NCBI GenBank assembly: GCA_016861205.1
Contig: BOKX01000001.1
Location: forward strand, 831,835 to 895,834
Length of the DNA: 64,000 nt
Source of the DNA: Patescibacteria group bacterium
GTDB lineage: Bacteria; Patescibacteriota; Microgenomatia; UBA1400; PJMF01
Direction: 5' to 3'
The position numbers and the translations under genes are program-made. This document shows, one piece after another, positions 22,114 through 58,655 of this stretch. Within the stretch, counting starts at the first letter, position 1. The number at the start of each line of letters is the position of its first letter. The notes beneath the pieces were generated by a model. The model saw only the letters and a program-made list of their open reading frames with translations, ran no database searches and was not told where the DNA came from.

Positions 22114-22281
22114 ATCCTAAGGGTATCACACCCAACCTGGGAATCGAAGTTTACAAAGTGGCACAAACCAGAACGTCAAACTGTTTTTGTCTTGCATTTG
22201 AGGGTGCCTTTTTAGCACCCGAAAACGCAAGGCTAAAAACGTTCTATTCGAACTTTGCCATCTGTGCGGTACAATACAGGG

Positions 22282-23547
22282 GTGAAACGAAAACTAGTAT
22301 TCGCGGTTTTATCTTTCTTGGTTGCAACCTGCATTTCAGTGAGACTTCCCTCAACTGCACAAGCACGAGGAAATGTGTCTTGTTCTAACATCAGTCAGGT
22401 CACAACCAGTTTTGGCAACGGAGTGGGTTTTGGCGGCAATCCTGAAATCCCCATTGGGGTGCAGTACCCTCCTTTTGATGTCATCTTAGAAGGTCAGTTT
22501 GCGAATGGAGATGAGTATCGCTTGGAACAAGTCCAAGATGCCATAGGACCCGATAATACGTTCCATACAACAGACGACGTTCGATCTGAACCCGGATCAA
22601 ATGGCAACACGAGAATCTCTTTTACCAACCGAAGCGAGCCAGATTGGTACACCGCAGGAGGAGATACTGACGTTGGGTGGACACAAGGACGCTGTTTGCA
22701 GTTCTACATTAAATTGCGGAATACCACGACAAATCAGGATGTTTGCCGTGTTGGCTCCTATCAACTCTGCGAGCCTGAATCTGATGACCTAATTTGTGAC
22801 AATTTTTATGTCTATCAGAATAACTCTCAATCCCAACCCACGAACGGTTGTTTTTCAACCGGGCGCACCTACTGGACACTTTCAAACTTGAGATACACCG
22901 ACGGAACACTGTATAACGGCGGCGATGGCGACGTTGAAATTCAATTCACTGGAGGCGGTGTCGCTGGTAATGACCAAGAACCAACTGTTAGAGATGGTGC
23001 TGCATCAGGCAGCTTTCAACTTGATGGTGACGATATCGGAACCAATCAATATGTTCGACTGACAGTTAATGGTCGTGAGATCTGCACCGCTAACCCAGAG
23101 CCATTTGTTCCGGCTGAAGCTTGTTCAGATGAGCAACGAGGTGAACCAATTGCTAATGCCCCACCAGTTAACGGATCTGGTTCAAATGTAGGCAGCTTTG
23201 TTCTTTGCGAGCAGATCCCAAATACAACAGCCCGCGAAGATTGCCGGCACTGTGATGAGGACCTGCATGGCGTCTGGACTGCAGTTGGTTGCATCTCTCG
23301 GCAACCTACCAGCATGATTCAAACCCTGATGGGGATTGGTCTGTCACTGGCAGGCGGGGTTTGCTTGCTCATGATGTTGGCTGCTGGCTTCACCTTTTCC
23401 ACCAGCCAAGGCGATCCCAAGAAAACAGGTCAAGCCAAAGAAATGATGACTTCTGCCATTGTCGGTTTAGTGTTTATACTTTTGTCAGTCACTCTGTTAC
23501 AGTTTATTGGAGTATCACTGCTCGGCATACCTGGGTTTGGTAGTTAA
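22282..23547 (+). CDS. Pilin-like (VirB2/TrbC-like two-helix module) protein fused to an approximately 350-aa N-terminal ectodomain
   Basis: GTG start gives a KRK signal peptide. The C-terminal 90 aa (MIQTLMGIGLSLAGGVCLLMMLAAGF..SQGDPKKTGQAKEMMTSAIVGLVFILLSV) shares the helix-charged-loop-helix motif of the tandem paralog array at 28.2-32.1 kb. Confidence 0.5.
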   Translation: MKRKLVFAVLSFLVATCISVRLPSTAQARGNVSCSNISQVTTSFGNGVGFGGNPEIPIGVQYPPFDVILEGQFANGDEYRLEQVQDAIGPDNTFHTTDDVRSEPGSNGNTRISFTNRSEPDWYTAGGDTDVGWTQGRCLQFYIKLRNTTTNQDVCRVGSYQLCEPESDDLICDNFYVYQNNSQSQPTNGCFSTGRTYWTLSNLRYTDGTLYNGGDGDVEIQFTGGGVAGNDQEPTVRDGAASGSFQLDGDDIGTNQYVRLTVNGREICTANPEPFVPAEACSDEQRGEPIANAPPVNGSGSNVGSFVLCEQIPNTTAREDCRHCDEDLHGVWTAVGCISRQPTSMIQTLMGIGLSLAGGVCLLMMLAAGFTFSTSQGDPKKTGQAKEMMTSAIVGLVFILLSVTLLQFIGVSLLGIPGFGS

Positions 23548-23553
23548 CCACAT

Positions 23554-24258
23554 ATGAAAAAAATCGCCACAGTACTAGTAACCCTACTCTTACTGGCAGT
23601 GACCGCCCAACCAGTATCTGCACAGTGGAGTTGTGTTCCAGCCGAAGACAGCAACCCGCAGTGTCCTTTAACTGGTTTTTCATACTATTGTGGTAACCCA
23701 AGCCCTGTTGATCCAAGTACTGGTCAACCATACCCCGAAGGCAACCCATATCATGAGGGACCACTGTGTTGTAACAACCAAGCTTCTTGTGAGAGTACTT
23801 TCCCCATAGTTCATTGCTGTATTAACGGAACTACACAACCCAACATGAACACTCAGGATTGTTTGGCACAAGGTGGCTCACCTCTTGCGTGTGAGGATAA
23901 TAACAACCCGAATCAACCTGGCAACTACAACTTACTCAACGGCCCCTCATCAGATGACTTCAACGCCCTCAATCCACTCCGACGCCCCGATGCTGACTCA
24001 GCGATTGCTGACCAATTCGCCACCCCCGCTGGCTTGATTTCTCGGGTGTTGCTGTTTGCCTTCCCAATTGCCGGCATTTTAATGTTGCTGATGCTTGTCT
24101 GGGGTGGTTTTGAAATCTTGTCAGGCGCCACCAACAAAAAATCACTCGACTCTGGCAAGAACCGCATCAAGGCGGGCATCGCTGGTTTTATGCTCTTGTT
24201 CACTTCCTACTGGATCGTCCAAGTCATCGAAGTGGTGTTGGGAATTCAAATTTTCTAA
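23554..24258 (+). CDS. Pilin-like (VirB2/TrbC-like) protein with Cys-rich N-terminal extracellular domain
   Basis: Signal peptide, a Cys-rich approximately 120-aa region, then the paralog motif ...LMLVWGGFEILSGATNKKSLDSGKNRIKAGIAGFMLLFTSYWIV. Confidence 0.5.
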   Translation: MKKIATVLVTLLLLAVTAQPVSAQWSCVPAEDSNPQCPLTGFSYYCGNPSPVDPSTGQPYPEGNPYHEGPLCCNNQASCESTFPIVHCCINGTTQPNMNTQDCLAQGGSPLACEDNNNPNQPGNYNLLNGPSSDDFNALNPLRRPDADSAIADQFATPAGLISRVLLFAFPIAGILMLLMLVWGGFEILSGATNKKSLDSGKNRIKAGIAGFMLLFTSYWIVQVIEVVLGIQIF

Positions 24259-27467: not shown

Positions 27468-27589
27468 GGGTACTTACCAATTAATGTCGTCACCCGATCC
27501 AACTGCGGTGGCAACACTCGCTGTTGATACAGCTTGGCTTGACGAGCTGCTTCCTGCTCAAGCTTAGCTAAAAATACAGCTTGACCCAT
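27386..27589 (-). CDS. Small membrane protein, possible anti-sigma factor
   Basis: 67 aa with a C-terminal TM helix, immediately downstream of the ECF sigma factor. Assigned by position only. Confidence 0.3.
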   Translation of the reverse strand: MGQAVFLAKLEQEAARQAKLYQQRVLPPQLDRVTTLIGKYPWQVILILSGFTAVFMELSKLFKGGSW

Positions 27590-27601
27590 AGGTTCTTTTT
27601 T

Positions 27602-28162
27602 CTAGGTGCTTAGTTCAACAAAGTAGTAACGAAAATCTCGCCTAGCTCGAAACAGATCTGACTCAACTGCCTTGATTGTTCTCCCCAGCTCTTCTGCGAT
27701 ATCTTTCACTGACTTGTTGTCAACGTACTTCATAAGCAGAAGTTCTTGAGCATCCGCTGACAGACGAGCAAAAACTGTTTTTACCTTTTCAGCTACTTCG
27801 TGGGCATCAGAAATGTCACTCACACTCACCAACTCAGTCAGTGGCAGGGCTGCAATGGCTTTTTTGGCGTAGCGCTTGCGATAGTAGTCAGCCACTTCGT
27901 GCCGAGCGATGCCAAGCATCCAGCTCCACAAACTTGACTCCCCGCGAAAAAGGGGCAAGTGTTTCAAGCAATTCAGAAAAACTTCTTGGGCCACCTCTTC
28001 GGCATCGGCGGGGTTGGAAATTCGTTGACCCAGCCAGCCTATGAGCCGCTGGCTATACAGCTGATACCACTCTCGGACTGCCGACGATGAACCGTCACGC
28101 AGTTCAGCCAGAAGGTGCTGTTCACTCTCTGTCAGTCTCGGCTGGGTGTTGTACGATGGCAT
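27602..28162 (-). CDS. ECF-type RNA polymerase sigma-70 factor
   Basis: Region 2 VFLNCLKHLPLFRGESSLWSWMLGIARHEVADYYRKR and region 4 KSVKDIAEELGRTIKAVESDLFRAR. Transcribed divergently from the pilin-like array. Confidence 0.75.
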   Translation of the reverse strand: MPSYNTQPRLTESEQHLLAELRDGSSSAVREWYQLYSQRLIGWLGQRISNPADAEEVAQEVFLNCLKHLPLFRGESSLWSWMLGIARHEVADYYRKRYAKKAIAALPLTELVSVSDISDAHEVAEKVKTVFARLSADAQELLLMKYVDNKSVKDIAEELGRTIKAVESDLFRARRDFRYYFVELST

Positions 28163-28187
28163 AGCCTTAGGGGTATAATAGCACGCA

Positions 28188-28550
28188 ATGCTAACTCTTC
28201 TCGCCCAAGATACAACCACCACTACCGGCTGTGATCCGAGCGCCGGTGCCATCAATCTCGGGGACTGTTATGTCCTCAACCGAGAAACTGGGACCACTGT
28301 TAGTTCAGTTTACCAACAACCAGCTGATCTGGTGAATGTTCTTATTCGCAATATTTTTGTGGTGGGCGGCGTCATCTTGTTCGGCAGCTTGTTGTTTGCA
28401 GGTTTCAAGTTCATTCAATCTGGTTCTAAGGGTAAAGAAGAGGCTAAAACAATTGTTAAAACCGCTGCCATTGGCTTCATTGTCATGTTTGCCGCTTTCT
28501 GGATTGTGCGAATTATTCAAGTGATTATTGGCCAAAATCTGATCCAGTAG
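28188..28550 (+). CDS. VirB2/TrbC-like pilin family protein (paralog 1 of tandem array)
   Basis: Helix 1 NIFVVGGVILFGSLLFAGFKFIQSG, charged loop SKGKEEAKT, helix 2 AAIGFIVMFAAFWIV. Confidence 0.5.
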   Translation: MLTLLAQDTTTTTGCDPSAGAINLGDCYVLNRETGTTVSSVYQQPADLVNVLIRNIFVVGGVILFGSLLFAGFKFIQSGSKGKEEAKTIVKTAAIGFIVMFAAFWIVRIIQVIIGQNLIQ

Positions 28551-28600
28551 AACTTGAACCAGTAGCTTGTCAGATCAAGAAAAGTGATACAATACAGCGT

Positions 28601-28990
28601 ATGCGCCTCGCACAAGCCTTAACCCCCACCGACATCATTGGTAGTGTGACTCCTCCTCCTGGCGTAACCGCCTATGACGCTCAAGCTGGTGGCATTGGTC
28701 TTATTTTGTTTCTTTCAACTTTGATTCGCGTTTTTACTGTAGTCGCAGGTTTGTACGTCATGGCTCAGTTCTTACTGGCCGGTTGGCAGTACATCACCGC
28801 CAACGGTGATACCGGTGTTAATGCTAAAGTTCGAGAGCGCATTACCATGAGTCTGATCGGTATTGTCATCATCGTGGCTTCGTACACAGTGGCCGGTATG
28901 ATTGGCTATCTGTTCTTCGGCGATGCTTCGTTCATTCTCAATCCTAATATTCAAGGACCGACCGCTCCAGCGCCGGTAATAACACAATAG
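28601..28990 (+). CDS. VirB2/TrbC-like pilin family protein (paralog 2)
   Basis: ...LYVMAQFLLAGWQYITANGDTGVNAKVRERITMSLIGIVIIVASY. Confidence 0.5.
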   Translation: MRLAQALTPTDIIGSVTPPPGVTAYDAQAGGIGLILFLSTLIRVFTVVAGLYVMAQFLLAGWQYITANGDTGVNAKVRERITMSLIGIVIIVASYTVAGMIGYLFFGDASFILNPNIQGPTAPAPVITQ

Positions 28991-28993
28991 TTT

Positions 28994-29401
28994 ATGTCAA
29001 ACTTCATCGCCCAAGCCGCACCTGCTAACCCATTTGGTAATGAGGGCATCGCTCCGGTCAGTCCCCGCTTTGAAGTTGACCTGAGTAGTGCTGAAGCAGC
29101 AAATGCCAGTTCTCTGAGCAATCTAGAGTTATTTATCTCACAACTAATTGGGTTTTTAACTGTCGGTGCCAGTCTCTTTTTCATCATTTACTTCATCATG
29201 GGCGCCTTCAAGTGGACCACTGCCGGTGGCGATAGTGGCAAAGTGCAAAAAGCCCGTGACCAGATGATTCAAGGCGCGATGGGCCTGATTTTGATTGTGG
29301 CTGCCTACAGCGTGATGGGTATCATCGGAACTGTCCTGGGTGTTGAAATCCTACAACCGGCCAATACGTTACGCAGTATCGTGGGACCAATCCAGAACTA
29401 A
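28994..29401 (+). CDS. VirB2/TrbC-like pilin family protein (paralog 3)
   Basis: ...IIYFIMGAFKWTTAGGDSGKVQKARDQMIQGAMGLILIVAAY. Confidence 0.55.
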   Translation: MSNFIAQAAPANPFGNEGIAPVSPRFEVDLSSAEAANASSLSNLELFISQLIGFLTVGASLFFIIYFIMGAFKWTTAGGDSGKVQKARDQMIQGAMGLILIVAAYSVMGIIGTVLGVEILQPANTLRSIVGPIQN

Positions 29402-29402
29402 T

Positions 29403-29918
29403 ATGAAAAAACTAACTCACTTCCTGACTCGTTCCAGCCTAGTTTTAGCGGTAGTGGTGGCAACATTAAGCTTTGCAACCAAAGCTCAGGCGCAGTTTAC
29501 CAACTTCGCCGAGTGTTTGGCTAATGGTTACTCAGATGTTGAGTGCCAAGATATCATGAGTCGACAGGGTGGCATCACTAATCCAGCCATCGGTCAGCTT
29601 GGTAACGACGCCGCTGGCGCCAGCGATGGCAGCCTGTTTGTTGGCTACTTCATCACTCTTTGGCGAGCCCTCATCGTAGTTGGCGGCCTAGCCGTGGTTT
29701 ACTTCTTTATTTGGGGTGCTCTGCGCTGGATTCTGGCTGGTGGTGACGCTGGCAAAGTTCAAAAAGCTCGTGACCAAATCATCCAGGCTATTATCGGTAT
29801 GATCCTGCTGGTTAGTTCGTTTGTGATTATCGGCTTCGTCAGTCAATTGGTGTTTGGTGAAAACTTTGATATTCTTAACTTGACCCTGCCTCAAGCCGGG
29901 CAAAGCACAACCAATTAA
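29403..29918 (+). CDS. VirB2/TrbC-like pilin family protein (paralog 4)
   Basis: Start at the internal Met MKKLTHFL, which gives a signal peptide. ...FFIWGALRWILAGGDAGKVQKARDQIIQAIIGMILLVSS. Confidence 0.55.
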   Translation: MKKLTHFLTRSSLVLAVVVATLSFATKAQAQFTNFAECLANGYSDVECQDIMSRQGGITNPAIGQLGNDAAGASDGSLFVGYFITLWRALIVVGGLAVVYFFIWGALRWILAGGDAGKVQKARDQIIQAIIGMILLVSSFVIIGFVSQLVFGENFDILNLTLPQAGQSTTN

Positions 29919-29919
29919 T

Positions 29920-30468
29920 ATGAAGATTGCCCAAGCCACCCTCAACTTTTATGAAGAAGCTGTTAACCAGCAACTTCCTGGCGTCACCGCTGCTGATATA
30001 GCAGCTGAGGATCGAGGTTTTGGCGCCTTGGTATCGCGGTTTTTTGGAGTGGCTTTGAGCGCAGCCAGTTTACTCCTGCTTTTCTATCTCGTTTGGGGTG
30101 CCATTGACTGGATGACCTCTGGCGGTGACAAAGGTAAAGTTGAAAAGGCCCGCAACAAGATTACCCAAGCCGTTATCGGACTGCTGGTATTATTGGCGTC
30201 AGTTGCCCTGATTACCTTGCTGCAAGGTTTCTTTAACTTTGAAGTGCTGCGGTTCAGTCAAAACACAACTCCCACAACCAATACTGTCAACTTGCCAGCT
30301 TTCTGTGATAACGATCCCTGTGCTACCGGATACACCTGTGATGAGAGTCGTGACAGATGTGTCCCGAGCTTAAATCAAACCCTACCTCAAACCTGTCGCA
30401 ACAATCCTTGTGGAACAGGCTATCGATGTGTGGAGAACCAAAACGGGTTCTCGTGTGTGCCGAATTAG
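29920..30468 (+). CDS. VirB2/TrbC-like pilin family protein with C-terminal tandem Cys-rich repeats (paralog 5)
   Basis: ...LVWGAIDWMTSGGDKGKVEKARNKITQAVIGLLVLLAS, then two modules: CDNDPCATGYTCDESRDRCVP and CRNNPCGTGYRCVENQNGFSCVPN. Confidence 0.55.
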   Translation: MKIAQATLNFYEEAVNQQLPGVTAADIAAEDRGFGALVSRFFGVALSAASLLLLFYLVWGAIDWMTSGGDKGKVEKARNKITQAVIGLLVLLASVALITLLQGFFNFEVLRFSQNTTPTTNTVNLPAFCDNDPCATGYTCDESRDRCVPSLNQTLPQTCRNNPCGTGYRCVENQNGFSCVPN

Positions 30469-30562
30469 GTAAAAAACTTGTCTAAGCACGCCAGCAGCGG
30501 GGTTTGACTTGAAGAAAACAACAAACTATAATACTATTATTGAGTAAGCAAAAGGAGCAATA

Positions 30563-30967
30563 ATGAAAAAGATTGTCCAAAAAGGTATTTCCGCTCTGGC
30601 TGGCGCCGCCGCCATTGCCCAGGCAGCTGCTGTGACTGTCAGTGCTGCAGCGATCACTGAGATTGATCCGCCCACCGCTTTCGTATCAGACATCGGTGTG
30701 TTGTTCAACAACATCTTAACTTTCGTCTTCATCATCGCCGCACTGCTGGTCTTCTTCTACCTCATCTGGGGTGGTATCGACTGGATCACTTCAGGTGGTG
30801 ACAAAGGTCAAACTGAAAAAGCTCGCAACAAAATCACCGCTGCTATCGTTGGTTTGATCGTGCTCTTGGCCTCATTCGCCATCTTGCAACTGGTGCTCCG
30901 CTTCTTCACTGGCGGCAGTGACCTGAACCAAATCTTGGATCAAAACGTTAACCAACGTTTGAACTAA
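30563..30967 (+). CDS. VirB2/TrbC-like pilin family protein (paralog 6)
   Basis: Signal peptide, ITEIDPPTAF junction, ...LIWGGIDWITSGGDKGQTEKARNKITAAIVGLIVLLAS. Confidence 0.6.
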   Translation: MKKIVQKGISALAGAAAIAQAAAVTVSAAAITEIDPPTAFVSDIGVLFNNILTFVFIIAALLVFFYLIWGGIDWITSGGDKGQTEKARNKITAAIVGLIVLLASFAILQLVLRFFTGGSDLNQILDQNVNQRLN

Positions 30968-30990
30968 GAGTTTACACTTTGAACTTGAAA

Positions 30991-31017
30991 CCCCCGCCAC
31001 TGGCGGGGGTTTTGGTT
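30991..31017 (+). terminator. Rho-independent terminator after pilin paralog 6
   Basis: CCCCCGCC-ACT-GGCGGGGG hairpin followed by a TTTTGGTTT run. Confidence 0.6.
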
Positions 31018-31045
31018 TCTCAGCACTAGGCAGTATAATATCGAC

Positions 31046-31621
31046 ATGCTCACGACACTTAAAACATCATTTGCTGTGTTACTAACTGTCCTTGGCCTGA
31101 GCTTGGCTACACCCGCTCTAGCCAGTGGTGAGTTGGTCGTCCAGCAAAATGGCGACGTGATGTATGTGACTACTGAAATTGATCCCGCCACTGGTGAGCA
31201 AGTCGTCGTCACTCGACCGGCCGATCCAGCTATTTCTGAGATTGATCCACCCACAGCCTTTGCCAGAGACATTGGTACCCTTATCAACAATGTGCTGACC
31301 TTCATTTTTATTGTCTGTTCACTGATGGTCTTTTTCTACCTGATTTGGGGCGGTTTGGACTGGATTACCTCTGGTGGTGATAAAGGCAAAACTGAGAAAG
31401 CCCGCAACAAAATGGTGGCGGCTATCGTTGGCTTAATTATCGTGTTGGCCTCGTATGCCGCGGTGAACTTAATTGTTCGCTTCTTCACTGCCAACTCACT
31501 CAACGAATTGCTGCAACAATTTTCATCAGGACCAGTTGAGGGTGAAACCCGCTTGACACCAGCAGTCACTCCTTCGCCAACTGGCTCACCCAAACCATCA
31601 CCATCAGCAACGTCTACCTAA
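31046..31621 (+). CDS. VirB2/TrbC-like pilin family protein with Pro/Ser/Thr-rich C-terminal tail (paralog 7)
   Basis: ISEIDPPTAF junction, ...LIWGGLDWITSGGDKGKTEKARNKMVAAIVGLIIVLAS. Near-identical core to paralog 6. Confidence 0.6.
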   Translation: MLTTLKTSFAVLLTVLGLSLATPALASGELVVQQNGDVMYVTTEIDPATGEQVVVTRPADPAISEIDPPTAFARDIGTLINNVLTFIFIVCSLMVFFYLIWGGLDWITSGGDKGKTEKARNKMVAAIVGLIIVLASYAAVNLIVRFFTANSLNELLQQFSSGPVEGETRLTPAVTPSPTGSPKPSPSATST

Positions 31622-31656
31622 AAACTTGTGAAGGACTGTCAAACATAAGGTATACT

Positions 31657-32091
31657 ATGCACATGTCACATCGCCGTTGGTTGCCTCGAGTTTTAGTCAT
31701 CCTCAGTTTGTTTGTATGGTTGGTAGCTATGCCTGTCCAGGCTCAAGCCCAGGGCGGCACCTGGTCGGGCGTCTGTGTAGCCAGTGATATCGGCTACGAT
31801 GACGTGGCTACTATTCAAGGTGTACAGTGTTTGATTGCCAACATTTTATCCGTGGCCATTAGCTTGATCGGGATGGCTGGGTTTGTGATGATGTTGATCG
31901 GCAGCTTCCGCTACATTATCTCTGGTGGCAACTCCAAGGGCGCTGATGCTGCTCGCAACACCATCACTTTTGCAGTGGTGGGACTGGCCGTGGCTCTGAG
32001 TGCCTTCATCGTCCTCAATCTGATTGCCGCCTTCACCGGCGTTCAAACAATCAAAGTTTTCCAGATTCCGAACTCATCAACTGGGTTATAA
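31657..32091 (+). CDS. VirB2/TrbC-like pilin family protein (paralog 8)
   Basis: ...MMLIGSFRYIISGGNSKGADAARNTITFAVVGLAVALSAF. Confidence 0.5.
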   Translation: MHMSHRRWLPRVLVILSLFVWLVAMPVQAQAQGGTWSGVCVASDIGYDDVATIQGVQCLIANILSVAISLIGMAGFVMMLIGSFRYIISGGNSKGADAARNTITFAVVGLAVALSAFIVLNLIAAFTGVQTIKVFQIPNSSTGL

Positions 32092-32098
32092 TACCCAC

Positions 32099-35000
32099 AT
32101 GCAGCATTTCCTGCTCAGGTTAGCTCGCGCAATTGGTGGAGTGGCATTTATTTTTGCCCTGAGCGCTCGGCCCGTGTTTGCTCAAGGCGTTCCTAATAAT
32201 GGCTGTGGTTCAACCAATATTACTGAGTACGTGGCCCCCCGCAACCCGGGTGGCTTGATCGGCTCATCTTCCGTTGGTGAAGGATATGAGTACTACGGTA
32301 ACGTTGCTAATCGAGTCGAGTGGGTAAACGGTGACACGTTCAAACAAATTTCCAATGACATTCACTTCTTGTACCGAGTTGGCAGTAGTCACATTAACTT
32401 CCTGCAAGACACTATCTGGAATCCTTTCACCTGTGACGGCAGTCAGCTTGATGCCATGTACCGTGTTTACCAAAATGATAATGGTCGTACTCCCCAACTA
32501 GGTGGCGCAGCAGCTGATGCGGGCAACTGGGGAGCGCGCTTCTTGGCTAACACCATGAGTTGTGGACAAACTGTCAGCAGTACTTCGTACATCCGTGGTT
32601 ACTCCACACCAGCCGATATTGAAACCAATCCTTTGCGCGACATTAGTGCCAATGAGTGTCGCGTCGGCAACTACACACTTACTACTGTTACCAACACATA
32701 CCAGCTGATTTTCCAAGGTGAGGCCACCTGTAATGACAAAAACACCGGGGTCAACGGCGAACCCCTCGAGGTAATTGCGATTACTATCACCGGTGGGGCC
32801 GGCGCCGGCGAAGTCGATGTGTACTGTAAAGGCTACGGTTTGTGTGCTTTTTACCAATCACTTGACTTCAGCGACCCTGATAACAATCCTGCCAACTGGA
32901 CGGCTGAGACCGATGTCTGTCACCTGAAAGGTGGCAAAACGAGAGCACCCTACTACCTGTACCCCATCAATGGCTTAAACAAATCCACCAACTTAGGTTC
33001 AATTTCTGACATTCAACAAAGCCTGGTCAATCAGGGTTATGAGGTGCAGTGCACTACCCCTCAGTTTTACATCAATGCCAAAACCGGCGGTGACCTCGAG
33101 CGCTTTTTCGACCTCGGCGGCTCTACCGTGGTCTCGCTCGATCCCAAACTCATCTACAACTTTGACCAAGCTCGCTACCCGCTGTTCCGCAAGGGCACCG
33201 GCGGCAGCTCCACCAGCAACTCGAGTTCGGGCAGTAGTAACGACACCGGCGGAAAGGGCGTCCTGGAGTCACTAGAAAATTACTTTGGTTTTATCGACAC
33301 CGACACCACTGATGTTGAAAGTGACGAGATGCGGCTGGAACAGGCTATCAAGTCAGCCCCAATTTACAGTTTGTTGAGTCTAGAAGACCAATGTATACAA
33401 AAAATTAAACTGCTAGAAACAATTCAGGTCATGTGTGAAAAGCTGGATGACCCCAGCAAATGTGCTCTGTACAAATCAATTCCCAACACTAACTTTAACA
33501 CTGAGCCCACTGGGTCGGCCTCACTGCTCGGCACCTTTAACGAGCGTGGCTATAGTTGTGCGCAACTCTTTGGCGGCGGTCCTGAGCGACTGCAAGTGAT
33601 TGGAGCGGATGTGATCGCTTTAAAGGAAGCCATCACTAACTTGCCACTCTACCTCGACAAGGCCTATCGTTTAGCTTTCTTGGTGATCACTTCAGAGCTC
33701 TGGCCACAACGCAACCAGCTCGATTTCTTCACTTTTTTGCGCGCCCGCGATAAATCAGGCGAAAAGCACGAGGTCAAAGTTCTGGCTTTCCGAATTCCCG
33801 ACATTGGCACCAACAAGGATTACAACAGCGACATCTTTTATACTGATCCCTTACAGTTGACCCGTGACACCCTCTTAAATAAGGAACTGCAAGATCAAGC
33901 TAAGGAAAAGCTGTTGCTTGAGCGGCAAAGCGACATCGAAGGCCTGGCGGCAGGTGACTACACCTTCTGCGGAGACGGCTGTCCAGTCCTCTGCCAAGAC
34001 CCAGAGTGTTCATCACTCCAAGATCCGTTGGCCATCAGTCTAGCTCGCCTCGTTAACCATGAAGGTAAAGTCTGTAGTGTTGATGCAGATGACCTGAAGG
34101 CAGAGGATGTTTTCACCATCACCGATAAAGTCGGTTTACAACAAACCGATGGTAACGTACTAAAACCCGACCAGTATCGTCAAGTCGCTGACTTGTTCAA
34201 AAGTAACGAGGCAAATGGCGTGGCTTCTAGCCCAAGCCAAGCGCGCTTCAACTTCTTCTCAAACATCCGTATTCAGCGAAATGTAACGGGCAACGGTTCT
34301 CCAGCAGTGCGAGCTTATCTGGTGTATCCGGTCGGAGCCGAGTTGAGTTCTGTTGAAGACACCTTATTGGGGTTAATCATGACTCCTGAACAAGTCACTG
34401 CCTACAAGAGCAACCCTGATCTCTTGAAGTACTTCCCCATGGAAAATACCGAGCCAAAGCTTGATTCCTCCAAACCCCAGGTCGGCTTCCGTGACCCAGC
34501 TTGTATCCCCACCCTTGACGGGAAGGGTTGCCAAAAGAATGTGGAAGCTTACGTCGAAGCTGAACCCAAAGACCAAAACTTTGTACGAGTACTTGGAGGT
34601 GTGCTGGGTTCAACTATTCGCACCTTGCAACAGTCGCTCTATTCGCTCGGAAGTCTGCAGTACAAGTTCATCACCAGCTGCAAAACGACTGAAGACTACC
34701 TCCTCGGTCGCTGTAAACCGGCTGACGATGATACCAATGACCCTTCGTCTCCAGTTGCTCCTACCGAAGGCATGTACTGTATTGACTGGGAAGTTGATGC
34801 CAGTCGAGCTGATGAGATCAAAGCGGCAGCTCGCAATGCCTTGACCACTCAATATCCTTACAATTTTGTCCAACCCGGTAGTCCTGGCCGCAACGGCAAC
34901 CAGTATCAGGATGAGCGCTATCAGGAACTGCTGGGCCAAAATCACGTTCGGTGGGATGGCTCAGTTATTCGGCCCGAAGAAATCAATCGGATGGAAAACT

Positions 35001-35401
35001 TCTATGGCGGTGGCCGAGCTTTGCTGTGGACCGTCAGCGACCAGTGTGAAGGCCAAGTCTGTTTCGACTATATCTTGGACAGGTGTGCCGCCGCGGGCTT
35101 TAACCCTGCCCTGTGTGTGGCCATGAACTTCAGTGAAAGTGGTGGCTCAAACCAAATTCGCTTCGGCGGCAGTTACGACTTCGGGTGTCTCCTAGCCGAG
35201 ACTAACAATGTTCAGTCTGGTCTAAATTGCTTGATCAATCGATTCTTTGTTCATCAGAGCGGCAAGGATTACAATGGCATGTTTGTCCGCTTCGCCGGGT
35301 ATGGACTCGACTCTCCCAGTTACCAAAAAATCCGCCAGTACTACACTGAGTTGACGGCTGGTTTATCAGACCCGGGAATTAGTGACGGGGCGTGCCAGTA
35401 G
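32099..35401 (+). CDS. Large secreted protein (1100 aa), possible cell-wall-active T4SS accessory protein
   Basis: Start at the internal Met, giving signal peptide MQHFLLRLARAIGGVAFIFALSARPVFAQG. Cys-rich. The C-terminal region (CAAAGFNPALCVAMNFSESGGSN) is weakly reminiscent of lysozyme-like/transglycosylase folds; that link is speculative. Confidence 0.5.
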   Translation: MQHFLLRLARAIGGVAFIFALSARPVFAQGVPNNGCGSTNITEYVAPRNPGGLIGSSSVGEGYEYYGNVANRVEWVNGDTFKQISNDIHFLYRVGSSHINFLQDTIWNPFTCDGSQLDAMYRVYQNDNGRTPQLGGAAADAGNWGARFLANTMSCGQTVSSTSYIRGYSTPADIETNPLRDISANECRVGNYTLTTVTNTYQLIFQGEATCNDKNTGVNGEPLEVIAITITGGAGAGEVDVYCKGYGLCAFYQSLDFSDPDNNPANWTAETDVCHLKGGKTRAPYYLYPINGLNKSTNLGSISDIQQSLVNQGYEVQCTTPQFYINAKTGGDLERFFDLGGSTVVSLDPKLIYNFDQARYPLFRKGTGGSSTSNSSSGSSNDTGGKGVLESLENYFGFIDTDTTDVESDEMRLEQAIKSAPIYSLLSLEDQCIQKIKLLETIQVMCEKLDDPSKCALYKSIPNTNFNTEPTGSASLLGTFNERGYSCAQLFGGGPERLQVIGADVIALKEAITNLPLYLDKAYRLAFLVITSELWPQRNQLDFFTFLRARDKSGEKHEVKVLAFRIPDIGTNKDYNSDIFYTDPLQLTRDTLLNKELQDQAKEKLLLERQSDIEGLAAGDYTFCGDGCPVLCQDPECSSLQDPLAISLARLVNHEGKVCSVDADDLKAEDVFTITDKVGLQQTDGNVLKPDQYRQVADLFKSNEANGVASSPSQARFNFFSNIRIQRNVTGNGSPAVRAYLVYPVGAELSSVEDTLLGLIMTPEQVTAYKSNPDLLKYFPMENTEPKLDSSKPQVGFRDPACIPTLDGKGCQKNVEAYVEAEPKDQNFVRVLGGVLGSTIRTLQQSLYSLGSLQYKFITSCKTTEDYLLGRCKPADDDTNDPSSPVAPTEGMYCIDWEVDASRADEIKAAARNALTTQYPYNFVQPGSPGRNGNQYQDERYQELLGQNHVRWDGSVIRPEEINRMENFYGGGRALLWTVSDQCEGQVCFDYILDRCAAAGFNPALCVAMNFSESGGSNQIRFGGSYDFGCLLAETNNVQSGLNCLINRFFVHQSGKDYNGMFVRFAGYGLDSPSYQKIRQYYTELTAGLSDPGISDGACQ

Positions 35402-36919: not shown

Positions 36920-38614
36920 ATGAAAAAAATCTCCTCCGGATTGATGCTAGCTTTTGTGTTCCTAATTGCGTTAACTGTGAGCGTGGTGTCATTGGCGAAG
37001 CCAGTGTCTGCCCAAACGCTTGGTCCTGAGTGTGAAACCGATGCCGACTGTGGTCCATCCACCGAAGGCCTGATCATTCGTTGTGAGGCGATTGGTGCCA
37101 GTGGCACCAGAACCTGCGTAGACCGAACACCTCGGAGGGGCAACATCCCGGAGTTGGTCGAGTACGATGAAGGCAAAACTGCTGGTGAGGCCGGTGACGT
37201 TAACCAAGCTTTTAATATAAACCAAACCTTAACTTGGGTCCAAGCCGGAATTATCGACTCAGTGCTGACTGACCCCAACAGTTTGGCCCAGTCCATGACC
37301 AAAGCCATCGCCTACATGTACGGCGATCCCCCAGCCTCTACCGATCGCTACGTGGCCTATGTCCTTGACTCAGCACACATTGTGCCTCAGGCTTACGCCC
37401 AAGGCTTAGGCTTTTCGTCACTCAGTCCTGTTTTAGATGCCTGGCGCACCTTCCGCAACATCGCCTACTTTTTCTTTGTGCTGATTTTCTTGGTGATTGG
37501 CTTCATGATCATGTTCCGATACCGGATTGGTCAGACGGCCATTACCGCCCAACAAGCTATCCCCCGGATTATCATCGCACTGTTAACAGTCACTTTTTCT
37601 TACGCCATCGCCGGACTGCTCGTCGATGTCATGTACCTGGTGATGTTCCTGTTAATTGGCGTGTTCGGCGTCAGTCAAGGCGACTTTTTGACCGTTGGCC
37701 CTGTTGAACTTGGAGCGGCCCTGATTACTGGCGGCGGTGATGCTGGCCGTCAAGCAGCCGAGGAAATCGTAACTGCGCTACTGGGTGGTGGAGTGGTAGC
37801 TGATGCCCTGGGCATCACTAGTGGCTTGATGGCTGGCGTAGTCGTGGCCGTGGCCATTGCCATTGGTATTTTCCGAGTTTTCTTCTCACTGCTGCGCACG
37901 TACGTCAGTTTGATCGTCTCGATCGCCACAGCACCAGTGGTGTTGATGCTGGGTGCTATTCCAGGTCGCAATGTTTTTAAACCTTGGTTCATGGGTATCG
38001 TCGGCAACCTGTCGGCTTTTCCGATTGTGCTGATTTTCTTGATTTTGTTTGACAAACTAACTGGTGGCGTCACCGGTGGCAGCGCTTCAGTTCAACAAGG
38101 TGGCTTCACTCCACCCTACTTATTTGGGGCGAGTGGAGCTGGTATTATTCCCCTGGCGCTCGGCTTGGGTGGCATATTAGTGCTCGAAAAAATTATCGAA
38201 GAAGGCAAAAAAGCCATGGGTGCCAAAGGCGGTCTGTTCGAACAGTACGCCGGCGCGCTCAGCGACTCAGTCAAGAGAGGCTGGAAGGGTGGGGAGCTGG
38301 TACCAGGGCTTGGGTTTACTAACACTGCCAAATACGGCCTTAGTGGCCAAAGTCTTGCTCGGACCGGAGCTGTGGCTGGAGCTGGATTGGCAGCCCTCCC
38401 TGGCGCTGCCCTCAACTACATGGGTACAGCCGTTCGAACACAAGGTTCGAGTGCGGCTTCAGCTGAAGCTGGTCTGGGTAACATCCGTGCTGCCATGCGA
38501 ACTGCTGCTGACGCCACCGGCTCTGGCTTTATGAAGGGTGACCGCGAGAAACGCAAGAAGGTCTCCTGGGTTGATATCGCGCGCAAGCGTCAGGCTTATC
38601 GACAAGAGAAGTAA
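36920..38614 (+). CDS. VirB6/TrbL-like polytopic membrane protein
   Basis: Signal peptide, Cys-rich extracellular N-domain (ECETDADCGPS...RCEAIG), at least 6 TM helices with Gly-rich segments, and a Gly/Ala-rich cytoplasmic tail. This is the architecture of T4SS inner-membrane channel subunits. Confidence 0.5.
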   Translation: MKKISSGLMLAFVFLIALTVSVVSLAKPVSAQTLGPECETDADCGPSTEGLIIRCEAIGASGTRTCVDRTPRRGNIPELVEYDEGKTAGEAGDVNQAFNINQTLTWVQAGIIDSVLTDPNSLAQSMTKAIAYMYGDPPASTDRYVAYVLDSAHIVPQAYAQGLGFSSLSPVLDAWRTFRNIAYFFFVLIFLVIGFMIMFRYRIGQTAITAQQAIPRIIIALLTVTFSYAIAGLLVDVMYLVMFLLIGVFGVSQGDFLTVGPVELGAALITGGGDAGRQAAEEIVTALLGGGVVADALGITSGLMAGVVVAVAIAIGIFRVFFSLLRTYVSLIVSIATAPVVLMLGAIPGRNVFKPWFMGIVGNLSAFPIVLIFLILFDKLTGGVTGGSASVQQGGFTPPYLFGASGAGIIPLALGLGGILVLEKIIEEGKKAMGAKGGLFEQYAGALSDSVKRGWKGGELVPGLGFTNTAKYGLSGQSLARTGAVAGAGLAALPGAALNYMGTAVRTQGSSAASAEAGLGNIRAAMRTAADATGSGFMKGDREKRKKVSWVDIARKRQAYRQEK

Positions 38615-53911: not shown

Positions 53912-55054
53912 ATGCGAGAACATCCGATCCCTCAGGATGTGGTTGGTTATCGGTTTCACATTGTCGGTAACATGACCATCAAACAGTTCGCGGAAATCGG
54001 CGCGGGCTGTATCGTGGCGTTCCTCATTTACACCACCAACCTGTTCGACTTAATTAAGTGGCCCTTGATTGGTATCAGTGTGGCCATGGGTGCTATGGCG
54101 GCTTTTGTGCCGTTTGAAGAGCGCCCGCTCGATCACTGGTTGATCACGTTCATCAGAGTCATGTACAAGCCCACTCTGTTTTACTGGCGTCGGGAACCAA
54201 AAGTGCCGGAACCGTTTCTCTACCAACCCAACCAAGTCAAAAATACTACAACCGATCTCGACTTGAGCCCTGCGCGTCGCCAACGCATCAAAGAGTATTT
54301 GGGCACACTCAACCAGGGACAAGCTCCCGACCAACTCGAACTGATGGAACAGTCACGACTTCAAGAGATCATGATGGCGTTTCAAACCACACAAGGCGTG
54401 GGCTTGATTAAACAAGGACACCGAGCTACCCTGACCGTTCGCACACACAGTCTTAAGTCACTGCCCACTGACACCACCACAGCCCAGCCAGCACCAGCTT
54501 CGGTCACCGTTTTTGAAACACCCGCCTCCTCTGGGCTACCCACCAGCACCTCTTTGGCTGCCAACAAACAGCTTCTGGGCGTTCATCAGGTGGCCACTTC
54601 CATTGAGATTCCCGAGGCACCAACGGTAAACTTGCAATCTTCCCAACTCACCACAGATGAGGCAACAGCCATCAATGCAACCCAGGCACCTGCTGATGAG
54701 CGCGCCTATACTGATGTGGCAGCAACCCCAGCAATCGTGGGAACGGCTTCACCTGCCGAGTTGAACGCGAACCTACCCTTTCCCACGCGCCCATCCGAAC
54801 CCAACAAACTGGTAGGAATGGTGTTGACTCCCACAAACGAACTTATCAACGACGCAATTGTTGAAATTGGCACCCCGCAGGGGCTCGTGGCTCGAGCGGT
54901 AAAAACGAACGCACTTGGCCAATTCTTTGTCACCACCCCCTTGCCGTCAGGTGAGTACACCATCAGCGTTGATAAAGAAAACTATCAATTCTTGCCCCAA
55001 TCACTCAGCTTGACCGGTCAGGTCGTCGATCCAATCGAGATTCGCAGTCTGTAA
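53912..55054 (+). CDS. PrgI/VirB3-like T4SS membrane protein fused to Thr/Pro-rich linker and carboxypeptidase-regulatory-like beta-sandwich
   Basis: N-terminal approximately 100 aa (PQDVVGYRFHIVGNMTIKQFAEIGAGCIVAFLIY...WPLIGISVAMGAMAAFVPFEERPLDHW) match the PrgI-family two-TM pattern. The C-terminal GMVLTPTNELINDAIVEI...GQFFVTTPLPSGEYTISVDKENY resembles a CarboxypepD_reg domain. Confidence 0.5.
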   Translation: MREHPIPQDVVGYRFHIVGNMTIKQFAEIGAGCIVAFLIYTTNLFDLIKWPLIGISVAMGAMAAFVPFEERPLDHWLITFIRVMYKPTLFYWRREPKVPEPFLYQPNQVKNTTTDLDLSPARRQRIKEYLGTLNQGQAPDQLELMEQSRLQEIMMAFQTTQGVGLIKQGHRATLTVRTHSLKSLPTDTTTAQPAPASVTVFETPASSGLPTSTSLAANKQLLGVHQVATSIEIPEAPTVNLQSSQLTTDEATAINATQAPADERAYTDVAATPAIVGTASPAELNANLPFPTRPSEPNKLVGMVLTPTNELINDAIVEIGTPQGLVARAVKTNALGQFFVTTPLPSGEYTISVDKENYQFLPQSLSLTGQVVDPIEIRSL

Positions 55055-55129
55055 AAAAAACTCACTACCAACTAAAATTTGCCCCCGCTACAGCAAATGC
55101 TTGCTTTGGTCTCCTGAACACTGGACCGA

Positions 55130-56407: not shown

Positions 56408-56451
56408 TACGACTAGCATCATCCCAAGCTGGTGACGTACAATAAGAAGTA

Positions 56452-58518: not shown

Positions 58519-58655
58519 CTTGGATTGATGTCGCCTGCCGTTTCTGCCCTTGCGGAGTGTGGAAAAAACTGTGTATAACCGCTGTTACCAAACTTTCAAC
58601 GAAGTTTACTGAAAGCCTGTCCCCTGCTTGCCCCAGCACAAGGTTAACGTTTGTC
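58519..58655 (+). promoter_or_regulatory. dnaA upstream region with DnaA-box-like sites
   Basis: TGTGGAAAA (about 58558-58566, reverse complement TTTTCCACA) and TGTGTATAA (about 58570-58578, reverse complement TTATACACA). Each is a 1-mismatch variant of TTATCCACA. Confidence 0.4.

What the first reader, a model, noticed from the sequence alone, without database searches (positions are those of the whole stretch)
28188..32091. Tandem array of eight paralogous two-helix pilin-like (VirB2/TrbC-like) genes
Eight consecutive same-strand genes (120-192 aa) each encode a signal peptide, then hydrophobic helix 1, then a short charged loop, then hydrophobic helix 2. The shared motif reads ...LxWGxxxWxxSGGDxGKxxKARxxIxxAxxGLxxxLAS. 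This is the topology of T4SS VirB2/TrbC pilins. A single pilin gene is the norm, and eight in a row is highly unusual. The paralogs diverge most in the surface-exposed N- and C-terminal parts. That suggests antigenic or host-range diversification of a pilus or adhesin, possibly linked to epibiotic attachment if this is a CPR organism. Paralogs 6 and 7 are near-duplicates, pointing to ongoing gene conversion or duplication.
Basis: partly seen in the sequence, partly recalled or inferred. Interest (0 to 1): 0.85.

Follow-up and report, generated by a model that had tools for sequence, protein, structure and literature searches.

The report
Patescibacterial VirB2-like pilin gene array
Eight neighbouring genes encode small two-helix membrane proteins of the type IV secretion pilin family; such arrays are real but already described in these ultrasmall bacteria, and here they are an old, conserved set of distinct subunits, not a fast-varying antigen family.

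Summary
The eight same-strand ORFs exist at the stated coordinates. All eight match Pfam PF18895 (T4SS_pilin), six of them above the curated cut-off.

Tandem VirB2-like pilin arrays are already published for Patescibacteria: 441 arrays of 2-11 genes (PMC12102498), essential in Southlakia epibionticum (PMC10633639). In 80 related species-level loci an array of 7-9 genes is the norm.

Several details in the finding are wrong:
- Only 4 of the 8 have a signal peptide.
- Paralogs 6 and 7 share 66% of amino acids, with synonymous sites near saturation and no conversion tract.
- Each paralog has a positional orthologue in other species (44-54% identity, higher than between most paralogs). The set is therefore ancient and under purifying selection, not diversifying.

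Added here:
- Paralog 6 is the only unit with its own Shine-Dalgarno site (89% of orthologues) and terminator (80%), like a major pilin.
- A conserved polytopic protein 5 kb downstream has a VirB6-like fold.
- The signal-peptide-less paralogs carry a conserved short M-x-LLA|Q leader.
- Elsewhere, five to eight hairpins are fused into one polypeptide.

Best reading: one major and several minor subunits of the chromosomal T4SS pilus. No pilus has been seen.

The parts
28188..28550 (+). Pilin paralog 1 (120 aa). It has no signal peptide and starts MLTLLAQD. The ectodomain has two Cys. A TATAAT box at 28174-28179 lies 8 nt before the ATG, which is a leaderless-mRNA signature.
   Evidence: PF18895 at 27.6 bits. 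Hydrophobic segments at 46-77 and 88-116. Upstream sequence. 35 of 55 orthologues share the -10 box 5-9 nt upstream, and none has a Shine-Dalgarno site.
28601..28990 (+). Pilin paralog 2 (129 aa). It has no signal peptide and starts MRLAQA. An extended -10 box (TGATACAAT, 28585-28593) lies 7 nt before the ATG. It is the first gene of a tightly coupled 2-3-4-5 unit.
   Evidence: PF18895 at 21.4 bits, E 2.7e-4, below the cut-off. hhalign to the other groups is >=97.7%. Upstream sequence.
28994..29401 (+). Pilin paralog 3 (135 aa). It has no signal peptide and starts MSNFIAQA. The start lies 3 nt after the stop of paralog 2.
   Evidence: PF18895 at 26.8 bits.
29403..29918 (+). Pilin paralog 4 (171 aa from the ATG). 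It has a signal peptide ending ...TKAQA|Q. The start lies 1 nt after the stop of paralog 3.
   Evidence: PF18895 at 31.4 bits. Gene call of 171 aa. 38 of 67 orthologues are coupled to the previous stop.
29920..30468 (+). Pilin paralog 5 (182 aa). It has no signal peptide and starts MKIAQA. It has a 72-aa C-terminal tail with 8 Cys.
   Evidence: PF18895 at 29.9 bits.
30504..31019 (+). Self-contained expression unit of pilin paralog 6 (gene 30563-30967, 134 aa, with a signal peptide). It has a TTGACT-17-TATAAT promoter at 30504-30532, an AGGAG Shine-Dalgarno site, and a terminator hairpin at about 30981-31019. This is the candidate major pilin.
   Evidence: Second-best PF18895 score in the window, 38.2 bits. 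Promoter matches 11 of 12 positions. Hairpin MFE -26.3 kcal/mol, z -3.9. 80% of orthologues are followed by a terminator-like hairpin, against 0-1% at positions 1-5 and 8 (14% in the paralog-7 group). 89% have a Shine-Dalgarno site, against 0-33% elsewhere. AF2 model has pLDDT 80.6, with the hairpin at 94-97.
31046..31621 (+). Pilin paralog 7 (191 aa). It has a signal peptide, a longer N-terminal ectodomain and a Pro/Ser/Thr-rich C-tail. A TATAAT box at 31034-31039 lies 6 nt before the ATG. It is a lineage-specific old duplicate of the paralog-6 type.
   Evidence: PF18895 at 41.0 bits. Both p6 and p7 map to position 6 of the 7-gene arrays. dS about 1.4 against p6.
31657..32091 (+). Pilin paralog 8 (144 aa, or 142 aa from the ATG at 31663, which lies 6 nt after a TATACT box). 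It has a signal peptide ending ...VQAQA|Q and the conserved ectodomain motif W-x-GVCV...ATIQG-x-C. It is followed 7 nt later by the 1100-aa gene.
   Evidence: PF18895 at 23.8 bits, E 4.7e-5, below the cut-off. hhalign >=97.7% to all groups. It is always the last gene of the array in relatives.
22255..24258 (+). Two further pilin-domain genes (about 390-430 aa and 234 aa). Each has a signal peptide, a large Cys-rich ectodomain (13 and 10 Cys) and a C-terminal pilin hairpin. They are candidate tip or adhesin subunits.
   Evidence: PF18895 at 33.1 and 29.4 bits. The same '2 + 8/9' layout occurs in at least 10 related loci. Cys counts.
27602..28255 (-). Divergently transcribed ECF-type sigma factor, followed by small membrane proteins at 27386-27589 and 27054-27467. 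It is a conserved neighbour of the array.
   Evidence: Sigma70_r2, Sigma70_r4_2 and Sigma70_ECF domains. Present on the same relative strand in 55 of 80 loci; the membrane protein is present in 54.
32099..35401 (+). 1100-aa secreted protein (signal peptide ...RPVFA|QG) with no family match. It is co-oriented with paralog 8 and conserved downstream of the array.
   Evidence: No Pfam or NCBIfam hit. tblastn hits in 41 of 80 loci.
36944..38614 (+). Polytopic membrane protein (556 aa; signal peptide plus about 7 TM helices) with a VirB6-like predicted fold.
53912..58518 (+). Core T4SS genes next to dnaA: PrgI/VirB3-like (53912-55054), TrsD-like (55130-56407) and VirB4-like ATPase (56452-58518).
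   Evidence: PF12666 at 9e-8. NF041427 TrsD at 3.9e-6. PF19044 and AAA_10. dnaA at 58557-60263.

Best explanation
The array is the pilin gene set of the chromosomal, conjugation-derived (MPF-FATA-like) type IV secretion system of a Patescibacteria bacterium, probably Microgenomatia/Pacebacteria-like.

Shown: it encodes about seven ancient, non-redundant types of VirB2-like two-helix subunits. The eighth is an old duplicate of type 6.

Inferred, assembly:
- Each subunit inserts in the membrane as a hairpin. The N- and C-termini face outside and the basic SGGDKGKxEKARNK loop faces the cytoplasm.
- Subunits with a signal peptide are cut at a conserved A|Q site.
- Subunits are then drawn out of the membrane by the TrsD/VirB4 ATPase on a VirB6-like platform encoded 5 kb downstream.
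- They polymerise into a pilus- or tube-like filament.

Inferred, roles:
- Paralog 6 is the abundant major subunit. It alone has its own promoter, ribosome-binding site and terminator, and it is the most conserved.
- The other types, and the two upstream pilin-anchored large ectodomain proteins, are low-copy minor, initiator or tip subunits.
- From literature on relatives, the filament serves contact with, or exchange of material with, a host cell.
For: Family:
- All 8 hit PF18895.
- Homologues reach PF04956 TrbC/VirB2 at 2.9e-8 and also hit T4SS_CagC.
- All give sub-threshold hits to NF045849, the pilin-like protein of mycoplasma ICEs.

Topology:
- There are two TM segments. The loop has K+R 3-5 against D+E 1-3, and the N-parts are acidic or neutral with paired Cys.
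- The AF2 hairpin has pLDDT 94-97.

T4SS link:
- PrgI, TrsD and VirB4 lie on the same chromosome segment next to dnaA. This is the layout described for Microgenomatia in PMC12102498.
- A VirB6-like fold is encoded 5 kb downstream and is syntenic in 34 loci.

Ancient, non-redundant set:
- The best hit of window paralog i is position i in every one of the 26 seven-gene arrays.
- Orthologue identity is 44-54%, against 21-42% between most paralogs.
- Each group has its own ectodomain signature.
- dN/dS is 0.11-0.19.

Major/minor split:
- A terminator follows 68 of 85 type-6 orthologues, against 0-1% at positions 1-5 and 8 (14% in the paralog-7 group).
- A Shine-Dalgarno site precedes 73 of 82 type-6 orthologues, against 0-33% of the others. 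The others are leaderless or translationally coupled.

Co-assembly:
- Single polypeptides with 5-8 fused hairpins exist in other metagenomes, inside pilin arrays.

Function in relatives:
- The pilin series and the T4SS are essential for epibiotic growth of S. epibionticum (PMC10633639; PMC12857230).
Against: - No pilus of this system has been observed in any Patescibacterium. Reviews call it a possibility.
- The window proteins themselves do not reach the PF04956 threshold (best 15.5 bits against 27.9).
- The array is 24 kb from virB4. In 80 relatives virB4 is never within 10 kb of the array.
- Four of the eight lack a signal peptide, so their export route is unexplained.
- Fused poly-hairpin proteins could equally mean a membrane-embedded bundle and not a filament.
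- The major-pilin role of paralog 6 rests on sequence signals only. There are no expression data.
Confidence: 0.6

Rival explanations
1. Diversifying pilin repertoire. The paralogs are interchangeable major pilins that vary the exposed surface for antigenic variation or to match different host strains. Recent duplication and gene conversion keep the repertoire fluid, as proposed for the virB2 paralogs of Anaplasma and Bartonella.
For: - The paralogs differ most in the N- and C-terminal exposed parts.
- Several genes have their own -10 boxes, so differential expression is possible.
- Array size varies from 7 to 12 among species. The extra copies are mainly of types 2 and 6/7.
- The literature suggests host adaptation.
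Against: - Positional orthology is strict across species.
- The exposed parts carry signatures conserved within each orthologue group.
- The closest pair has dS about 1.4, dN/dS 0.19 and no identical run longer than 13 nt. DNA repeats within the array are at most 72-79% identical.
- The expression architecture is fixed by position.
Confidence: 0.12
2. Membrane-resident hairpin proteins that never form a pilus. The paralogs, and the fused poly-hairpin versions elsewhere, build or line a membrane channel or envelope scaffold together with the VirB6-like protein and the large secreted protein. This could be part of the T4SS translocon or an independent envelope system under ECF-sigma control.
For: - The array is not adjacent to virB4 in this clade. 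It is syntenic with an ECF sigma factor, a 1100-aa secreted protein and a polytopic membrane protein.
- Covalently fused 5-8-hairpin proteins exist.
- Monoderm MPF-FATA systems are generally pilus-less.
- Four paralogs lack a cleavable leader.
- The fold is a generic membrane hairpin.
Against: - There is sequence kinship with bona fide pilin families PF04956 and CagC.
- The basic loop and the termini-outside topology match conjugative pilins.
- The polytopic neighbour resembles VirB6, which is the pilus assembly platform in R388.
- One paralog has the expression signature of an abundant structural subunit.
Confidence: 0.23
3. Chance or annotation artefact: the ORFs are hydrophobic reading frames without function.
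For: None beyond the small size and the low complexity of the TM segments.
Against: - There are 76,220 family representatives at E<=1e-3.
- The genes are conserved in order and sequence in 80 species.
- They are under purifying selection.
- Independent gene calls agree.
Confidence: 0.01

Closest known systems
VirB2-like pilin arrays of Patescibacteria T4SS (Quinonero-Coronel et al. 2025, PMC12102498; Wang et al. 2023, PMC10633639; 'Sec secreted array' of TM7x)
   Same: - Tandem PF18895/VirB2-like genes: 2-11 per array, about 25% mean identity, most abundant in Microgenomatia and Saccharimonadia.
- The genome has PrgI-TrsD-VirB4 next to dnaA and no relaxase in view.
- This window fits all of these features.
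   Different: Nothing essential differs. In this clade the array sits about 24 kb from virB4, not inside the T4SS cluster as in S. epibionticum. The closest pair (66%) exceeds the 54% maximum quoted in the survey.
VirB2/TrbC conjugative pilins of diderm T4SS (Pfam PF04956; e.g. Agrobacterium VirB2, RP4 TrbC)
   Same: - A small protein with two hydrophobic helices and a short basic loop.
- A leader cut to give an N-terminal Gln. For VirB2, A47|Q48 is from my memory and was not checked here.
- Weak-to-significant profile matches among homologues.
   Different: - Classical systems have a single gene per system, in diderm hosts, and the pilin is cyclised. Here there are seven conserved types in a monoderm.
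- Half of the paralogs here have no signal peptide.
- The window proteins score below the PF04956 threshold.
virB2 paralog clusters of Anaplasma, Ehrlichia and Bartonella (cited in PMC12102498)
   Same: Several tandem VirB2 genes next to a T4SS of a host-dependent bacterium.
   Different: Those clusters are interpreted as antigenic variants. Here the paralogs are positionally orthologous across species and under purifying selection.
Mbov_0395 family pilin-like conjugal transfer protein of mycoplasma and Firmicutes ICEs (NCBIfam NF045849)
   Same: An 80-residue two-helix module. All ten window pilin domains hit it, best at E 2.3e-6. It belongs to MPF-FATA-type elements, the class from which the Patescibacteria T4SS is thought to derive.
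   Different: All scores are below the 40-bit cut-off. It is a single-copy gene in ICEs.
Major/minor pilin gene sets of type IV pili (analogy only, not homologous)
   Same: One highly expressed major subunit gene with its own promoter and terminator, plus an operon of several conserved low-abundance minor subunits and large tip proteins.
   Different: The fold, leader (class III signal with a prepilin peptidase) and assembly machine are different.
Archaeal Ced/Ted conjugation-like pili (Aeropyrum pernix pilin, PDB 8dfu)
   Different: There is no detectable sequence relation. The match is no better than to many unrelated hairpins.

Membership tests
Pfam PF18895 T4SS_pilin | Match to the family HMM at or above the gathering score (26.6 bits) | tested here: met
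   Six of eight are above the cut-off: 27.6, 26.8, 31.4, 29.9, 38.2 and 41.0 bits. Paralogs 2 (21.4 bits, E 2.7e-4) and 8 (23.8 bits, E 4.7e-5) are below it. Both join the family by profile-profile comparison at >=97.7%.
Pfam PF04956 TrbC/VirB2 pilin | Match to the family HMM at or above the gathering score (27.9 bits) | tested here: not met
   The best window protein scores 15.5 bits, E 0.021. Among 34 close homologues, 21 match at E<=0.1 and the best reaches 2.9e-8. The relation is therefore transitive, not direct.
VirB2-type conjugative pilin (functional class) | Two hydrophobic helices joined by a short basic loop, with both termini on the outer side | tested here: met
   Hydropathy. Loop K+R exceeds D+E in all eight, and the ectodomains have Cys pairs. 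AF2 helices at 44-76 and 81-115.
VirB2-type conjugative pilin (functional class) | Cleavable N-terminal leader (Sec signal peptide) | tested here: inconclusive
   Present in paralogs 4, 6, 7 and 8. Absent in 1, 2, 3 and 5, which keep only M-x(2-5)-[LI]AQ. The same split occurs in relatives: 300 of 617 lack a leader.
VirB2-type conjugative pilin (functional class) | Specific structural similarity to solved conjugative pilins | tested here: inconclusive
VirB2-type conjugative pilin (functional class) | Polymerises into an extracellular pilus dependent on VirB4 and VirB6 | not testable with these tools
   Needs microscopy or biochemistry. Only the genes for VirB4-like, TrsD-like, VirB3-like and a VirB6-like fold are shown.
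Patescibacteria VirB2 pilin array (PMC12102498) | Two or more PF18895/PF04956 genes in tandem (or separated by one gene) in a Patescibacteria genome that carries the Patescibacteria-type VirB4 | tested here: met
   Eight genes in tandem plus two more 4 kb upstream. VirB4-like, TrsD and PrgI lie next to dnaA. The relatives are Patescibacteria by record title. The VirB4 clade itself was not placed by phylogeny.
Patescibacteria VirB2 pilin array (PMC12102498) | High divergence between members (mean about 25% identity) | tested here: met
   21-42% for most pairs. The 5/6/7 subgroup is at 49-66%.
VirB6/TrbL family (for the neighbour at 36944-38614) | Polytopic membrane protein with sequence or fold similarity to VirB6 | tested here: inconclusive

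The most novel reading that the evidence does not exclude
The array encodes a fixed-composition, heteromeric T4SS filament in a monoderm. It has one major subunit (type 6) and six conserved minor types, plus two pilin-anchored large ectodomain proteins, and it assembles on a highly divergent VirB6 encoded beside the array instead of beside virB4. About half of the subunits use a short conserved M-x-LLA|Q leader in place of a Sec signal peptide. That leader would be processed by an as yet unknown route to give an N-terminal Gln, possibly for pyroglutamate formation or head-to-tail cyclisation as in VirB2/TrbC. The fused poly-pilin proteins of other lineages would be covalent versions of the same assembly.
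Probability: 0.3. Interest if true: 0.6.

Novelty: already known. Interest (0 to 1): 0.3.

Why it matters
The T4SS and its pilin series are among the few functions shown to be essential for the epibiotic life of cultivated Patescibacteria. What the system transports, and whether it builds a pilus at all, is unknown. This locus adds no new kind of system.

The comparative results do sharpen the question:
- The pilin set is an ancient, position-conserved group of about seven distinct subunits with one major-pilin-like gene. That argues for a composite structure and against antigenic variation.
- A candidate for the VirB6 reported as scarce in Microgenomatia sits next to the array.
- The short A|Q leaders and the fused poly-pilins are concrete handles for biochemical tests.

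Tried and rejected
- A profile search of PDB sequences with the family alignment found nothing.
- tblastn of a homologue against 72,556 plasmids gave only four weak hits, one of them to an Mbov_0395-family pilin-like gene. It yielded no usable set of classical VirB2/TrbC sequences for a profile-profile test, so that test was not done.
- Recent duplication or gene conversion was rejected. There is no long identical DNA tract.
- Hidden signal peptides from mis-called starts were rejected for paralogs 1, 2, 3 and 5. In-frame stops lie 2-14 codons upstream, and -10 boxes sit 6-8 nt before the ATG of paralogs 1, 2, 7 and 8.
- Pfam, NCBIfam, PADLOC and PDB sequence searches of the conserved neighbours (1100-aa, 341-aa, 564-aa and small membrane proteins) gave nothing.
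- The organism could not be named. The exact proteins occur on a 1.149-Mb NCBI contig and in Logan assemblies DRR258780/1, without names.

Full report
**1. Observation**

The region 28188-32091 holds eight consecutive + strand ORFs. Two independent metagenome assemblies carry the identical array with the same gene calls: 120, 129, 135, 171, 182, 134, 191 and 142 aa, followed by an 1100-aa gene.

- Each product has two strong hydrophobic segments separated by a short loop.
- The loop is net positive (K+R 3-5, D+E 1-3). The N-terminal parts are acidic or neutral and often carry paired cysteines. This fits a hairpin with both ends outside and the loop in the cytoplasm.
- The quoted motif holds for paralogs 3-7 and is degenerate in 1, 2 and 8.
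- Profiles built from the orthologues of each paralog all align to each other with hhalign probability >=96.6%, so the eight are one family.
- A family HMM hits only these eight and two more genes upstream (22255-23547 and 23554-24258) in the whole 64-kb window.

Three details of the finding do not hold.

- Only paralogs 4, 6, 7 and 8 have a signal peptide. Paralogs 1, 2, 3 and 5 begin MLTLLAQD, MRLAQA, MSNFIAQA and MKIAQA, with in-frame stops just upstream.
- Paralogs 6 and 7 are the closest pair but are not near-duplicates. They share 66% amino-acid and 68% nucleotide identity, with pS 0.63 (dS about 1.4), dN/dS 0.19 and a longest identical run of 13 nt. DNA repeats in the array are 60-79% identical.
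- Eight in a row is not unusual for this lineage (section 3).

**2. What the proteins are**

- All eight match Pfam PF18895 (T4SS_pilin). Six are above the gathering score. Paralogs 2 and 8 are just below it, at E 2.7e-4 and 4.7e-5.
- The canonical TrbC/VirB2 model PF04956 is hit only weakly by the window proteins (best E 0.021). Among 34 close homologues, 21 match at E<=0.1, the best at 2.9e-8, and two hit the Helicobacter CagC pilin model.
- All ten pilin domains also give sub-threshold hits to NCBIfam NF045849, the 'Mbov_0395 family pilin-like conjugal transfer protein' of mycoplasma and Firmicutes ICEs (best 2.3e-6). The only annotated plasmid gene hit by tblastn is of that family.
- The AlphaFold model of paralog 6 is a confident helical hairpin, with pLDDT 94-97 over residues 50-110.
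- The family is very large, with 76,220 representatives at E<=1e-3 in 1.84 billion proteins.

**3. Context and relatives**

The window is chromosomal and near the origin: dnaA, dnaN, rnpA, yidC and jag lie at 58.5-63.6 kb. Directly upstream of dnaA lie a PrgI/VirB3-like gene, a TrsD-like gene and a VirB4-like ATPase. A T4CP-like ATPase lies at 4764-7100. This is the arrangement described for Patescibacteria, in particular Microgenomatia (PMC12102498).

A scan of one genome per species found 384 relatives of paralog 6. The best 80 loci come from MAGs titled Pacebacteria, Paceibacterota, Microgenomates, Woesebacteria or 'Patescibacteria group'. Some carry evidently wrong titles such as 'uncultured Pseudomonadales'; that judgement is my inference from the shared synteny.

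- Counting pilin domains in these loci gives arrays of 7 (26 loci), 8 (17), 9 (14), 10-12 (7) and fewer (16; I did not check how many of the smaller ones are cut by contig ends).
- The '2 upstream + 8/9' layout of the window recurs in at least ten loci.

**4. It is already known**

- Quinonero-Coronel et al. 2025 report 441 VirB2 arrays of 2-11 pilin genes in 383 Patescibacteria assemblies. [quoted passage not shown]
- Wang et al. [quoted passage not shown] It treats a pilus in a monoderm as an open possibility.

The finding is therefore a further example of a published kind.

**5. What the comparison adds**

(a) Positional orthology.
- The best match of window paralog i in another genome is the gene at position i. 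This holds in 26 of 26 seven-gene arrays for every paralog. Paralogs 6 and 7 both map to position 6, and paralog 8 always maps to the last position.
- Orthologues are 44-54% identical (median), which is more than most paralog pairs at 21-42%.
- Each group keeps its own ectodomain signature:
  - type 1: C-x-pG...LGdC
  - type 2: G-x-I-x-P-x-GV
  - type 4: ITNPViG-x-LG
  - type 8: W-x-GVCV...ATIQG-x-C
- The set of about seven types therefore predates the divergence of these species and is under purifying selection. This argues against antigenic variation and ongoing conversion.

(b) Conserved expression architecture.
- In the window, paralog 6 has a near-consensus promoter (TTGACT-17-TATAAT), an AGGAG site and a strong terminator hairpin (-26.3 kcal/mol, z -3.9).
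- Across species, 68 of 85 type-6 genes are followed by a terminator-like hairpin, against 0-1% at positions 1-5 and 8 (14% in the paralog-7 group).
- 73 of 82 type-6 genes have a Shine-Dalgarno-like site, against 0-33% for the others.
- Type 1 genes have a -10 box 5-9 nt before the start and no Shine-Dalgarno site (35 of 55). Types 4 and 5 start within 8 nt of the preceding stop.
- This pattern is that of one abundant major subunit and several low-level partners. That reading is inference; there are no expression data.

(c) A VirB6-like neighbour.
- The polytopic protein at 36944-38614 belongs to a family of at least 601 Patescibacteria proteins with no Pfam domain. It is syntenic with the array in 34 loci.
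- PMC12102498 notes that VirB6 homologues are scarce in Microgenomatia, presumably through divergence. This is a candidate for that gene, and it ties the array's neighbourhood to the T4SS.

(d) Short leaders.
- About half of the array genes in the 80 loci (300 of 617) have no signal-peptide-like segment even in the longest possible ORF.
- 44% of those carry A-Q within the first 13 residues (MLTLLAQ, MFLPTLIAQF, MKLAQV, MQIVKQAYAQT).
- 53% of the leader-bearing genes have A-Q right after the hydrophobic core.
- The background frequency is 0.13% per position.
- A mature N-terminal Gln thus seems to be selected. How a 5-8-residue leader is handled is unexplained.

(e) Fused poly-pilins.
- About 60 of the best 150 family representatives contain 2-8 hairpin modules in one polypeptide.
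- One of them (552 aa, six modules) is a genuine table-11 ORF without DNA tandem repeats. It sits inside an array of single pilins.
- Fusion of modules that elsewhere are separate genes suggests that the paralogs act in one assembly.

**6. Mechanism**

Shown:
- family membership and topology signals;
- a conserved multi-type set under purifying selection;
- presence of VirB3-, TrsD-, VirB4- and T4CP-like genes and a VirB6-like fold;
- a conserved, position-specific expression architecture.

Inferred:
- The hairpins are inserted in the membrane, with the basic loop inside.
- They are processed at A|Q, extracted by the VirB4-type ATPase on the VirB6-like platform, and polymerised into a filament.
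- In that filament, type 6 is the major subunit and the others are minor, initiator or tip subunits.
- The two upstream proteins with large Cys-rich ectodomains, and the 1100-aa secreted protein, are candidates for distal or adhesive parts.
- The divergent ECF sigma factor, conserved in 55 of 80 loci, may regulate part of the locus.

From literature on relatives: the system is needed for epibiotic growth, and its substrate is unknown.

Main rival: the hairpins stay in the membrane as part of a channel or scaffold. This is kept at about 0.23, for three reasons:
- no pilus has been seen;
- virB4 is never within 10 kb of the array in this clade;
- poly-hairpin fusions are easier to picture in a membrane.

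**7. Verdict**

The pilin-family reading is right. The claims of rarity, of a signal peptide on each gene, of near-duplication and of diversification are not supported. The kind is already described, so the overall interest is low to moderate. The side observations (positional orthology, a major-pilin-like unit, a VirB6-like neighbour, A|Q short leaders, poly-pilins) are the parts worth following.

Noticed in passing
window 28188, 28601, 28994, 29920 (N-termini of paralogs 1, 2, 3, 5); L003-L082: A conserved very short leader, M-x(1-8)-[LI]-A-Q, replaces a signal peptide in about half of all array pilins. Genes with a leader also have A|Q at the predicted cleavage site. AQ occurs in 44% and 53% of N-termini against a 0.13% per-position background. 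The processing or export route is unknown.
   Followed up: partly
window 28174-28179, 28585-28593, 31034-31039, 31651-31656: -10 boxes (TATAAT, TGATACAAT, TATAAT, TATACT) lie 6-8 nt upstream of the start codons of paralogs 1, 2, 7 and 8, with no Shine-Dalgarno site. This suggests leaderless mRNAs. The same signature occurs in 35 of 55 type-1 and 18 of 27 type-8 orthologues.
   Followed up: partly
window 36944-38614: A conserved polytopic membrane protein without any Pfam or NCBIfam match has VirB6 (TrwI) and DotA as its best fold matches. It is a candidate for the VirB6 reported as scarce in Microgenomatia.
   Followed up: partly
L083 1777-3435 (also P0254, P0266): Single polypeptides with 5-8 tandem pilin hairpin modules behind one signal peptide ('poly-pilins'). 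About 60 of the best 150 family representatives have 2-8 modules. The L083 example is a real ORF inside an array of single pilin genes. I found no mention of this in the papers read.
   Followed up: partly
window 22255-24258: Two genes encode large Cys-rich ectodomains (13 and 10 Cys) fused to a C-terminal pilin hairpin. They lie downstream of a SpoIID-domain protein (20374-22113, - strand). The pair recurs upstream of the array in at least ten related loci.
   Followed up: partly
window 27054-28255 (- strand): An ECF-type sigma factor plus two small membrane proteins (67 and 137 aa) are transcribed divergently from the array. They are conserved at this position in 55, 37 and 54 of the 80 loci. 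This is a possible sigma/anti-sigma pair controlling the locus.
   Followed up: no
window pilin domains vs NCBIfam NF045849: All ten pilin domains resemble the Mbov_0395 pilin-like protein of mycoplasma/Firmicutes ICEs at sub-threshold level (E down to 2.3e-6). PMC12102498 states that MPF-FATA systems lack VirB2 homologues, so this hints that the pilin may have come with the monoderm system instead of being co-opted from diderm T4SS.
   Followed up: no
window 39605-53207: A block of large genes has no match in Pfam or NCBIfam and no homologue within the flanks of the related loci: 1369 aa (-), 394 aa (-), 396 aa (-), 659 aa (+) and 1456 aa (+). They lie between the array sub-locus and the PrgI-TrsD-VirB4 genes.
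   Followed up: no
L068 (CP011212.1): A complete 853-kb genome titled 'candidate division TM6 bacterium GW2011_GWF2_28_16' carries a 7-gene array of the same type. Several other loci carry titles such as 'uncultured Pseudomonadales' or 'Vitreimonas sp.'. These are probably deposit-level taxonomic labels that do not fit the content.
   Followed up: no
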